Positions 17,382-18,710 of a stretch of DNA of 64,000 bases are shown here, piece by piece. Source of the DNA: Candidatus Saccharimonadota bacterium (GTDB taxonomy: Bacteria > Patescibacteriota > Saccharimonadia > Saccharimonadales > Saccharimonadaceae); contig JAFRKC010000003.1 in assembly GCA_017431955.1 (NCBI GenBank), forward strand, positions 3,299 to 67,298, read 5' to 3'. Below the pieces are notes generated by a model. The model searched no databases and was not told the DNA's origin. It saw only the letters and a list, made by a program, of their open reading frames with translations. Numbering within the stretch: the stretch's first letter is position 1; every line of letters begins with the position of its first letter. The translations under genes were made by a program, and so were the position numbers.

Positions 17382-18710
17382 TTATTTTACGATGGCGAGT
17401 TTGTTTTTGCCTTTTTTAATGAGGCAGGTGTCGCTTAATGTGATGGTTTCATCAGAAACTTTAGTGCCATTTACAGAGATGGCATTGCCGGCAAGGGATT
17501 TTTTGGCGTCGGTCTTGGAAGGGCAAAGGCCGGTTTCAACCAAGACATCTACGATATTGTTACCTTTTTTTGCGGTTGGGAGAAATTCAGCGAAAGAGTC
17601 AAAATCTTCGGCGGTGAGAGCGGAAAAATCGGTATCTCTGCTGAACAGGAGGTTGGTAAGATTCTCGGCGGCTTTGGCATTTCTGGCACCGTGAACAACG
17701 GCGGTGGCGCCAAGAGCAAGTGCGCGCTGAGCGAGACGCTTTTCTGGGGCCTCGGCGTGCTTAGCTAAGATATCTTCGATTTCTGGTTTATCTAGGAGAG
17801 TGTAGATTTTGATGAGATATTCGACGGCGGCGTCTGGTTGGTTGAGCCAGAATTGATAGAAGTCGAAAACAGAGGTGAAATTGCCGGAGCCGTTGTCTTT
17901 GCCGGCGAGCCAGACGGCGTTGCCTTCGGATTTGCCGAATTTGCGGCCGGTGACTGGGTCGATTACGAGTGGAGTGGACCAGACGTCGGCGGTGGCGTTC
18001 TCGAGGCGTTTAATCATGTGAATACCAGAGGTGCAGTTGCCGTATTGGTCGGCACCGCAGAGCTGAAGATCGATGTCATATTGGCGGTAAAGGTGAAGGA
18101 AATCGTAGCCCTGAATCAGGGTATAAGAAAACTCGGCATAAGAGATGCCAGAGCCGCCTTCGCCGATGCGGTTTTGGACGAATTGACGATCTAGAAGTTG
18201 CGTCATGGAGAAAGATTTGCCGACTTCACGAAGGAAGCTCAAATAGTTCATGTCTTTGAACCAGTCGAGGTTGTCGACCATGGTGATGGTACTTGAGCTG
18301 CTGGAATCTTCTTCTGAGGACCGTAAGCTTGGGCGAGCGCCCTCGAGCGTGTCCGAAGAAGAAGATTCGGCAGCTTCAGTGGCATTAGCGATGACGCGCT
18401 CGATTTGCTCTTTGAGACATGATTTGTTGTGCTCGACTTCGTCGAGAGATTTGAGCTCTCTTTCGCCGTTTTCTTTTGGATCGCCAATTTGACCGGTGGC
18501 GCCGCCAACCAAGAGATATGGCTTGTAGCCGTGGCGGACAAAGGTGGCGCACATCATCAAAGCGGCGAGATTGCCGATGGTGAGGGAATCAGCGGAAGGG
18601 TCGGCGCCCCAATAGAACTGCTTGTTTTCGCGAGTATCTAGGGTTGATGGATCTTTGATGGTGGTTTCGGCGGAAAAACCGCGCCACAATAATTCTTCAG
18701 ATAATTTCAT
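17382..18710 (-). CDS. tyrS: Tyrosine--tRNA ligase (with ~28-aa repeat-derived insertion)
   Basis: FYWGADPSADSLTIGNL (HIGH variant), GGATGQIGDP, EFSYTLIQGYDF, GADQYGN, KFGKSEGNA, C-terminal S4-like domain. Confidence 0.97.
   Translation of the reverse strand: MKLSEELLWRGFSAETTIKDPSTLDTRENKQFYWGADPSADSLTIGNLAALMMCATFVRHGYKPYLLVGGATGQIGDPKENGERELKSLDEVEHNKSCLKEQIERVIANATEAAESSSSDTLEGARPSLRSSEEDSSSSSTITMVDNLDWFKDMNYLSFLREVGKSFSMTQLLDRQFVQNRIGEGGSGISYAEFSYTLIQGYDFLHLYRQYDIDLQLCGADQYGNCTSGIHMIKRLENATADVWSTPLVIDPVTGRKFGKSEGNAVWLAGKDNGSGNFTSVFDFYQFWLNQPDAAVEYLIKIYTLLDKPEIEDILAKHAEAPEKRLAQRALALGATAVVHGARNAKAAENLTNLLFSRDTDFSALTAEDFDSFAEFLPTAKKGNNIVDVLVETGLCPSKTDAKKSLAGNAISVNGTKVSDETITLSDTCLIKKGKNKLAIVK
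18304..18368 (-). repeat. Palindromic repeat copy inserted in frame in tyrS
   Basis: Core CGGACACGCTCGAGGGCGCTCGCCCAAGCTTACGGTCCT (18317-18355, minus) with arms GAATCTTCTTC/GAAGAAGATTC. Confidence 0.85.

What the first reader, a model, noticed from the sequence alone, without database searches (positions are those of the whole stretch)
18290..18390. TyrRS carries a ~28-aa Ser-rich insert encoded by the hairpin repeat
Between QIERVI and TMVDNLDW, normally a short loop in bacterial TyrRS, lies ANATEAAESSSSDTLEGARPSLRSSEEDSSSSSTI, mostly encoded by the 65-bp hairpin 18304-18368. An essential enzyme appears to tolerate a mobile-element-derived peptide. The mRNA hairpin could also affect translation or be removed at RNA level.
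Basis: partly seen in the sequence, partly recalled or inferred. Interest (0 to 1): 0.65.

Follow-up and report, generated by a model that had tools for sequence, protein, structure and literature searches.

The report
Selfish hairpin repeat inside tyrosyl-tRNA synthetase
The only tyrosyl-tRNA synthetase gene of this tiny rumen Saccharibacteria genome carries, in frame, a 90-base copy of a genus-wide palindromic repeat, a situation so far described mainly for the "coding palindromes" of Rickettsia and not yet reported for this phylum.

Summary
tyrS (17382-18710, minus strand) has one 30-residue gap-free insert (aa 111-140, 18291-18380) compared with its closest relative, which is 92% identical elsewhere. 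The insert is an imperfect palindrome (RNA fold -46 kcal/mol, z -5.4).

It is one of 8 copies of a repeat family in this 713-kb genome:
- four lie in frame in tyrS, metK, ileS and recX;
- the other four lie between genes or at a gene end.

The family has a conserved 37-nt core, semi-conserved inner arms and outer arms that differ from copy to copy but still pair. It occurs in 39 of 61 Candidatus Nanosyncoccus genomes and in none of 100 genomes from other genera of the order.

The same TyrRS loop is empty in most congeners. In others it holds this element in either orientation or frame, or one of at least five other multi-copy palindromic families. A tree of 118 sequences needs 31 state changes.

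This is the only tyrS in the genome, all conserved residues are kept, and the allele recurs in independent assemblies. The insert is therefore most likely translated as a disordered surface loop. The way the element moves is unknown.

The closest known parallel is the Rickettsia palindromic elements.

The parts
17382..18710 (-). tyrS, 442 aa, the only tyrosyl-tRNA synthetase gene of the genome
   Evidence: ORF. Pfam PF00579 plus PF22421. NCBIfam TIGR00234. The second PF00579 locus is trpS.
18285..18389 (-).
   Evidence: Coordinates. Unaligned against all solved TyrRS.
18291..18380 (-). 90-nt imperfect palindrome, equal to the 30-aa insert (aa 111-140, TEAAESSSSDTLEGARPSLRSSEEDSSSSS) that is absent from the closest relative
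   Evidence: A single 30-residue gap against P0002. Coordinates. Fold.
18299..18374 (+). 76-nt match to the covariance model of the repeat family; the model's orientation is on the + strand, antisense to tyrS
   Evidence: cmsearch 85.8 bits, E 2e-20.
18304..18321 (.). Inner arm (left), which encodes part of SSEEDS
   Evidence: Inverted repeat I1. 93% identical to the metK copy, including one compensatory change.
18322..18350 (.). Asymmetric centre of the conserved core (family consensus of the 37-nt core: GGACCATAAGCTTGGCCGAGCGGCCTCGAGCGTGTCC; its GGAC/GTCC ends lie in the inner arms). It contains a small GGGC-GAGC-GCCC hairpin and encodes roughly DTLEGARPSLR.
   Evidence: Alignments A1 and A3. 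Helix 3 pairs are almost invariant.
18351..18368 (.). Inner arm (right), which encodes ESSSSD
   Evidence: Inverted repeat I1.
18286..18301 (.). Outer arm specific to this copy (pairs with 18370-18385)
   Evidence: Inverted repeat I2, 75% complementary. In the family the outer helix shows every pair type but is paired in 85% of cells.
18370..18385 (.). Outer arm specific to this copy (pairs with 18286-18301)
38825..38900 (-). Full copy of the same family, in frame inside recX (stop-to-stop frame 38488-39438, minus strand), read in the opposite orientation to the tyrS copy
   Evidence: cmsearch 75.6 bits. ORF and peptide. RecX families.
38915..38989 (-). Two half copies in tandem inside recX; one of them is read in a second frame (LRTISLA)
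   Evidence: nhmmer partial hits. Peptide.
54900..54975 (-). Intergenic copy just downstream of a 721-aa gene; the hairpin is followed by TTTTTT
   Evidence: cmsearch 85.7 bits. Context. The simple terminator scan did not flag it; that scan only accepts loops of 3-8 nt.
11719..11754 (-). Partial (half) copy between two genes
   Evidence: nhmmer E 7e-5. Context.

Best explanation
The 90-nt palindrome at 18291-18380 is a copy of a small, non-autonomous, hairpin-forming repeat element that is specific to the genus Candidatus Nanosyncoccus. The element consists of a conserved asymmetric 37-nt core, roughly 12-bp semi-conserved inner arms, and outer arms that differ between copies but still pair.

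The copy entered a permissive surface loop of TyrRS after this lineage split from its closest sequenced relative. The loop lies between the long helix that ends near residue 107 and the strand MVDN.

Its length is a multiple of three and the frame used has no stop codon, so ribosomes read through it. The enzyme then carries an extra 30-residue Ser/Glu/Asp-rich segment that is mostly disordered. Insertions that break a gene are lost, so only copies in tolerant loops or between genes survive. This explains why the same loops of tyrS and ileS are occupied again and again.

Shown here: the family relationship, the insert boundaries at protein level, absence from the sister sequence, single gene copy, open frame, recurrence of the allele, and repeated occupation of the loop.

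Inferred: that the peptide is present in the mature enzyme and is roughly neutral, and that the element is, or was, mobile. How it moves is unknown. A strand bias within contigs points to a single-stranded DNA hairpin stage linked to replication.
For: Family: 8 copies in the genome. The metK copy is 93% identical over 58 nt.

Genic copies: four lie in frame in tyrS, metK, ileS and recX. The metK and ileS segments are missing from most congeners.

Structure: 41 copies align with 93% of cells paired against 72% in shuffles (0 of 500 shuffles as high), and 251 cells changed on both sides against 83 in shuffles.

Distribution: 39 of 61 genomes of the genus carry 1-22 copies. None of 100 genomes from other genera of the order does.

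Site: the closest relative P0002 (92% identical) has an empty site and is the sister in the tree. 65 of 95 distinct loop sequences from the fetched relatives' genomes have the short 18-aa loop.

Recurrence: the same core family sits in the same loop in three other lineages, in the other orientation or another frame (P0003, P0023, P0005). At least four independent gains are required. Five other long inserts in this loop are also strong hairpins and belong to multi-copy repeats.

Gene integrity: this is the sole tyrS. Every column that is invariant across the 48 aligned TyrRS, this one included, is by definition kept here, among them the motifs I45-G46-N47 and F258-G259-K260-S261. The allele occurs in four variants on about 15 contigs.

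Reading frames: five of six frames of the tyrS copy are open, whereas two of the three intergenic copies have stops in at least five of six frames.

Model: AlphaFold2 gives pLDDT below 50 for aa 121-138, between helix 89-118 and strand 143-146.

Precedent: an RPE-bearing Rickettsia guanylate kinase is translated and active (PMC2229807).
Against: There is no direct evidence, RNA or protein, that the insert is kept in the mature enzyme.

No transposase was linked to the element. The Y1 (IS200/RAYT) family is absent from this genome and from most genomes that carry the element. No target-site duplication was seen. Mobility is therefore inferred only from the distribution.

The core is far better conserved than neutral junk should be: 51 of 53 nt between the orthologous metK copies of two species, whose flanking coding DNA I judged by eye to be only about 70% identical. 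Stems also change by compensatory pairs. Both features would equally fit a hairpin with a function.

The DNA of the empty-site relative could not be fetched, so the exact junctions are known only at protein level.
Confidence: 0.8

Rival explanations
1. The hairpin is kept because it works at RNA or DNA level. It could be a shared structured module in the mRNAs of tyrS, metK, ileS and recX and in intergenic terminators. It might be an RNase III or RNA-binding-protein site, a ribosome pause site, or a terminator. Under this reading the peptide is a by-product.
For: Pairing is maintained by compensatory changes even between orthologous metK copies of two species and across 41 copies. The core is more conserved than the host coding sequence around it and is conserved in every frame and orientation. 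Two intergenic copies are followed by T-runs just after gene ends.
Against: The distribution is patchy: 22 of 61 congeners have no copy. The sister tyrS is empty. Different, unrelated palindromic families replace each other in the same loop between sister sequences. Orientation relative to the host gene is mixed. No Rfam family matches. Compensatory-looking changes can also arise without selection, when one arm of a quasi-palindrome is used as the template to correct the other; this is general knowledge and was not tested here.
Confidence: 0.12
2. The insert is removed before the enzyme is made, either as an intron-like RNA excision of the hairpin or as protein splicing. The mature TyrRS would then have the short loop.
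For: The very stable hairpin brings the two junctions together.
Against: If the element were excised, its length and frame would be free to vary. Yet all four genic copies in this genome and about 20 in other genomes keep the host frame without stops, and all 40 tyrS genes examined are uninterrupted. There is no group I or II intron or ribozyme match. The 30-aa peptide is far too short for an intein and is low-complexity. The recX copies are read in two different frames.
Confidence: 0.04
3. The segment is an ordinary lineage-specific loop expansion of TyrRS, or an assembly artefact, and its hairpin and its similarity to other loci are incidental.
For: Shorter extensions of 5-11 aa in this loop are common in the genus.
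Against: The similarity to other loci is highly significant: E values of 1e-17 to 1e-20 to copies in other genes and other genomes. The hairpin has a z-score of -5.4. An identical insert is present in four protein variants from independent assemblies.
Confidence: 0.02

Closest known systems
Rickettsia palindromic elements (RPE-1 to RPE-10; Ogata et al. 2000 Science 290:347; Ogata et al. 2002; summarised in PMC10969869 and PMC2229807)
   Same: Both are several families of small palindromic, hairpin-forming repeats confined to one genus of reduced-genome, host-dependent bacteria. Both occur between genes and, unusually often, in frame inside conserved housekeeping genes. In both, the encoded peptide lies where the fold tolerates it, no transposase is known, and target-site duplication is unclear.
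   Different: The host is an unrelated phylum, Saccharibacteria. The element here is shorter: a 76-nt modelled unit and a 90-nt insert, against 105-146 bp for RPEs. Only a 37-nt core plus inner arms is conserved, while the outer stem is private to each copy yet paired. One protein loop is hit repeatedly by the same and by different families, with fast turnover. Copies on a contig mostly share one strand. Sequence homology to RPEs was not tested.
Bacterial MITEs found inside genes (ERIC/IRU, the 107-bp Correia/NEMIS form, YPAL; Delihas 2007, PMC2229807)
   Same: They are small non-coding repeats with long stem-loop transcripts and open reading frames that become fused in frame to host genes.
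   Different: Those elements have conserved terminal inverted repeats, usually TA ends, and target-site duplications, and they match the ends of a parent insertion sequence. Here the ends are the least conserved part, and no duplication or parent element was found.
REP/BIME and REPIN elements with their RAYT (Y1 HUH) transposases
   Same: They are short palindromic hairpins that are numerous, often sit at the ends of genes, and are thought to act as single-stranded DNA hairpins.
   Different: REPs lie outside genes and travel with a RAYT gene. Here no Y1_Tnp gene exists in this genome, or in most genomes that carry the element, and half of the copies are inside genes.
[quoted passage not shown]
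   Same: It is a repeat family whose intergenic copies look like transcription terminators. Two intergenic copies here are hairpins followed by a T-run just after a gene end.
   Different: The simple terminator scan did not confirm them. The genic copies have no T-run, and the element is translated in genes.

Membership tests
Protein-coding palindromic repeats of the RPE kind (functional class) | A dispersed multi-copy repeat family within one genome | tested here: met
   Eight copies by nhmmer and by the covariance model.
Protein-coding palindromic repeats of the RPE kind (functional class) | Palindromic sequence predicted to form a long stem-loop | tested here: met
   -46 kcal/mol with z -5.4. 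26 pairs, paired in 93% of cells across 41 copies.
Protein-coding palindromic repeats of the RPE kind (functional class) | In-frame insertion in conserved protein genes, absent from orthologues | tested here: met
   tyrS, metK and ileS, recX. About 20 of 34 copies in congeners are genic and in frame.
Protein-coding palindromic repeats of the RPE kind (functional class) | Restricted to one genus, with several families | tested here: met
   39 of 61 genomes in the genus and 0 of 100 in other genera of the order. At least five other multi-copy palindromic families exist in congeners.
Rickettsia RPE families proper | Sequence homology to RPE-1 to RPE-10, and a size of 105-146 bp | not tested
   No RPE sequences were compared. 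The size here (76-90 nt) is below the RPE range given in PMC2229807. The hosts belong to different phyla, so membership is not claimed.
Protein-coding palindromic repeats of the RPE kind (functional class) | The insert is translated and the host protein stays active | not testable with these tools
   Inferred only, from the open frame, the single gene copy, the conserved residues and the recurring allele.
MITE | Conserved terminal inverted repeats that match a parent insertion sequence | tested here: not met
   The outermost helix has no conserved sequence; all pair types occur. The 5' flanks are 29% identical between copies.
MITE | Target-site duplication | tested here: inconclusive
   No consistent direct repeat was seen at the ends of 37 copies by inspection. 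The boundaries are blurred by the private outer arms.
REP/REPIN-RAYT | A cognate Y1 (RAYT/IS200-type) transposase in the genome | tested here: not met
   PF01797 is absent from G000 and is present in only 6 of 61 congeners, with no relation to element copy number.
Self-splicing intron, ribozyme or intein | Match to a known intron or ribozyme RNA family, or intein motifs; frame not constrained | tested here: not met
   Rfam gives only a chance-level miRNA hit at E 1.4. Frames are preserved in all genic copies. The peptide is 30 aa and low-complexity.

The most novel reading that the evidence does not exclude
The elements are not ordinary cut-or-copy transposons. They would be replication-linked fold-back insertions. 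A conserved, strand-specific core hairpin is installed by host replication or repair enzymes, or by a factor supplied in trans. The outer stem is made, or later corrected, at the site, for example by snap-back synthesis or arm-to-arm templating.

This reading would explain several features together: the private but paired outer arms, palindromy that runs on into the flanks, the same-strand bias on contigs, the lack of any transposase, and the way one core replaces another in the same protein loop. It would be a mechanism of mobility not described for bacterial repeats.
Probability: 0.18. Interest if true: 0.85.

Novelty: new member of a known kind. Interest (0 to 1): 0.6.

Why it matters
In-frame "selfish DNA" inside essential genes has been treated largely as a peculiarity of Rickettsia. 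Finding the same situation in Saccharibacteria, an unrelated lineage of ultra-small, host-dependent bacteria, suggests it is a general outcome of very compact genomes. When almost everything is coding, the only places where small mobile hairpins can survive are tolerant protein loops and gene ends.

The TyrRS loop offers a natural experiment. Among the 118 closest TyrRS sequences found (mostly Candidatus Nanosyncoccus), about 31 gains, losses or swaps of 25-40-residue segments have occurred in one position of an essential enzyme.

This has practical consequences. Such inserts inflate divergence in alignments and trees of marker genes from the Candidate Phyla Radiation. They could also mislead annotation and structure prediction.

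Tried and rejected
- Hammerhead or other ribozyme in the core: the CUGA...GAA letters of the tyrS copy are not conserved in other copies, and Rfam finds nothing.
- Insertion into a pre-existing host hairpin: the 65 empty TyrRS loops have no excess folding (mean z -0.19).
- Outer arms copied from the host flank: I looked for this in tyrS and metK against empty alleles and saw no clear flank-derived arm. In another family (locus L140) the arm does include the host's V-I-S-N codons. Flanks beyond the 76-nt model are more complementary than mismatched controls, but only modestly (-7.65 against -5.24 kcal/mol, p 4e-5). This is left unexplained.
- RAYT/IS200 as the mobiliser: absent. Other transposase families were not searched.
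- DNA of the empty-site relative (GCA_016648615.1): not retrievable, and that genome is not among the species representatives.
- Terminator scan of the intergenic copy: not flagged, because the scan only accepts loops of 3-8 nt.
- Orientation against GC skew: 7 of 8 copies in this genome lie on the C-rich strand, and the tyrS copy is the exception. The sample is too small to separate replication from gene direction.

Full report
**The observation.**
tyrS is a 442-aa ORF on the minus strand at 17382-18710. It matches Pfam tRNA-synt_1b plus the TyrRS C-terminal domain and NCBIfam tyrS well above the cut-off.

Inside it lies an inverted repeat with 18-nt arms (18304-18321 and 18351-18368, 89% complementary). 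A second, outer pair of arms lies at 18286-18301 and 18370-18385. As mRNA, the 106 nt fold at -46.1 kcal/mol against -26.7 +/- 3.6 for shuffles (z -5.4, 0 of 200 shuffles as good).

All solved bacterial TyrRS align in two blocks, query 4-107 and 140-431, with only some 8-12 residues in between.

**It is a repeat.**
A short-word BLAST of the region against the whole 713-kb assembly found related sequences on four contigs. An nhmmer profile and then a covariance model (R1, 76 positions, 26 pairs) find eight copies.

Four copies lie inside long ORFs and keep the frame:
- tyrS;
- metK (contig 4);
- ileS (contig 4);
- recX (window 38825-38900, followed by two half copies up to 38989).

The other four lie between genes or at a gene end. 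Two of them sit directly after a gene end and are followed by a T-run. The simple terminator scan does not flag them.

The element is read in both orientations. It gives SSSSDTLEGARPSLRSSEED in tyrS and ileS, and SSEDHKLGRAASSVSEEDD in metK and recX. In recX it is read in two frames. Five of the six frames of the tyrS copy are open, whereas two of the three intergenic copies have stops in at least five of six frames.

**Anatomy of the family.**
Copies share a 37-nt asymmetric core, approximately GGACCATAAGCTTGGCCGAGCGGCCTCGAGCGTGTCC. It contains a small GGCC-GAGC-GGCC hairpin. They also share about 12-bp inner arms that occur in two or three variants.

The outer arms differ from copy to copy but still pair. 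In an alignment of 41 copies from 30 genomes:
- 93% of cells form a pair, against 72% after shuffling partners (0 of 500 shuffles as high);
- 251 cells are changed on both sides, against 83 in shuffles;
- every pair of the outer helix shows four to six pair types.

That alignment was fitted to the model. However, sliding the partners by one to three columns drops pairing to 33-50%.

The tyrS and metK copies are 93% identical over 58 nt. They differ by two compensatory double changes, and their outer arms are unrelated.

The metK insert is shared with one other species. There the core and inner arms are 51/53 identical, while the flanking coding DNA is, by my eye, only about 70% identical. A CA/TG change in one arm is matched in the other arm.

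Complementarity continues a little into the flanks beyond the model (-7.65 against -5.24 kcal/mol for mismatched flanks, p 4e-5), although the flanks themselves are unrelated between copies. I could not explain this private stem.

**Who has it.**
Record titles of related loci name the group as Candidatus Nanosyncoccus / Candidatus Saccharibacteria from ruminant guts.
- Model R1 hits 39 of 61 genomes of the genus, with 1-22 copies each.
- A further genome has 27 copies.
- None of 100 genomes from other genera of the same order is hit.
- About 20 of 34 copies inspected in other genomes are inside ORFs and in frame, with both orientations relative to the host gene.

**The TyrRS loop in relatives.**
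The closest protein, P0002, is 380/412 identical outside one clean 30-residue gap. The insert is therefore residues 111-140, i.e. 18291-18380, exactly the palindrome. P0002 is also the sister in the tree (SH-aLRT 93).

Of the 95 distinct loop sequences recovered from the fetched relatives' genomes, 65 have the short 18-aa form of the stretch from just after the conserved Gln to the DW motif.

The loop is nevertheless a hot spot. The same core family sits there in three other lineages:
- P0003 and P0023, in the opposite orientation;
- P0005, in another frame;
- P0004, which looks like a partly deleted remnant.

Other lineages carry unrelated inserts of 25-40 aa. Among the fetched loci, eight loops of 45 aa or more fold as strong hairpins, -49 to -77 kcal/mol. 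The five unrelated ones tested are themselves multi-copy repeats; their five genomes gave 13-33 matches each to the joined five-insert query.

On a tree of 118 TyrRS built with the loop masked:
- the insert classes need 31 changes;
- the core family needs at least four gains;
- several well-supported sister pairs are filled/empty or carry different families.

Empty loops have no hairpin tendency of their own (mean z -0.19). The recurrence is therefore better explained by tolerance of the site than by a pre-existing DNA structure. The ileS site is likewise occupied in three of the species examined, and the metK site in two.

**Is the enzyme intact?**
The genome is 98% complete. It has only two PF00579 loci, and the second is trpS.

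Every column that is invariant across the 48 aligned close TyrRS, this one included, is by definition kept here, among them the motifs around G46-N47 and K260-S261.

The insert-bearing allele occurs as four protein variants with an identical insert, on about 15 contigs from different assemblies.

An AlphaFold2 model has mean pLDDT 76.7. The long helix (89-118) runs into the first residues of the insert. Residues 121-138 fall below pLDDT 50, and the fold resumes at strand 143-146.

**How it most likely works.**
I read the insert as a passenger: a small non-autonomous hairpin element that landed in a tolerant surface loop and is translated as a disordered Ser/Glu/Asp-rich segment.

Translation is inferred, not shown. 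The grounds are:
- frame conservation in all genic copies;
- uninterrupted tyrS in all 40 genomes where it was found;
- the published precedent of an RPE-bearing Rickettsia guanylate kinase that is translated and active (PMC2229807).

Excision from the RNA is unlikely on the same grounds, and because no intron or ribozyme family matches.

A function for the hairpin itself cannot be excluded. The strong conservation of the core and the compensatory stem changes argue for some constraint. The patchy distribution, the empty sister site and the swapping of families argue against a need at this locus.

**Mobility.**
No Y1 (IS200/RAYT) transposase is present here or in most carriers. No target-site duplication was seen.

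Following a lead from earlier notes of this scan, I checked strand bias. Copies on one contig mostly share a strand:
- 73 of 100 pairs are concordant (permutation p 0.0014);
- by my count from the strands listed, a further 33 of 36 pairs in two more genomes are concordant.

In this genome 7 of 8 copies lie on the C-rich strand of their contig. The tyrS copy is the single exception. The tyrS copy of the P0003 genome agrees with its contig. This hints at a single-stranded, replication-linked step. The sample in this genome cannot separate replication from gene direction.

**Comparison and novelty.**
The closest known system is the Rickettsia palindromic elements. They are genus-specific families of palindromic repeats that sit in frame in housekeeping genes of a reduced genome (PMC10969869; PMC2229807).

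Differences are the phylum, the smaller size, the conserved-core and private-stem design, the repeated occupation of single loops, and the strand bias.

Full-text searches found no paper that combines Saccharibacteria with palindromic elements. The 46 papers that mention Nanosyncoccus were only listed, not searched for this topic. Other agents of this scan have noted the same phenomenon in other Saccharibacteria genomes. These are unpublished AI notes and I count them as leads only.

I therefore file the finding as a new member of a known kind, with features that may turn out to be a new variant.

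Noticed in passing
window 18570-18581 (aa 44-47 of TyrRS): The class I 'HIGH' signature reads T-I-G-N here. I-G-N is invariant in all 48 aligned Nanosyncoccus TyrRS, whereas E. coli and other solved enzymes have H-I-G-H or H-I-G-S at this position. Both histidines of a catalytic motif are thus replaced across the genus.
   Followed up: no
window 38825-38989 (recX, minus strand): One full and two half copies of the same element lie in tandem inside recX. They add about 54 residues and are read in two different frames.
   Followed up: partly
genome contig C4:22234-22309 (ileS) and C4:127989-128064 (metK), outside the window: The same element is in frame in ileS, as part of a roughly 45-aa insert in a beta-hairpin loop before the TTTPWTLP motif, and in metK (26 aa). 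The ileS site is also occupied in two other species, and the metK insert is shared with one.
   Followed up: yes
window 54900-54975; genome C1:34721-34796: These intergenic copies sit immediately after gene ends. They have an A-run before and a T-run after the hairpin, like bidirectional terminators. The arms of genic copies lack the T-run. The consensus terminator scan did not confirm them.
   Followed up: partly
loci L002, L005, L100, L123, L140 (tyrS of congeners): At least five other, unrelated palindromic repeat families of about 75-100 nt exist in the genus. The five genomes gave 13-33 matches each to the joined five-insert query. Each family occupies the same TyrRS loop in some species. 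In L140 the hairpin arm includes the host's own V-I-S-N codons.
   Followed up: partly
whole genome, contigs C2, C4, C6: GC skew is strong and of opposite sign on different contigs (+0.17 on C4, -0.24 on C6), while long ORFs are mostly on the minus strand of both. Skew and gene direction are therefore uncoupled on part of the genome.
   Followed up: no
P0004 (TyrRS of a relative): The loop IENVLTNATASSQAVSEEEGPETINLRM looks like the P0003-type insert after an internal deletion of the core. This suggests that inserts decay by in-frame deletion. The common 5-11-aa extensions of this loop may be such remnants.
   Followed up: no
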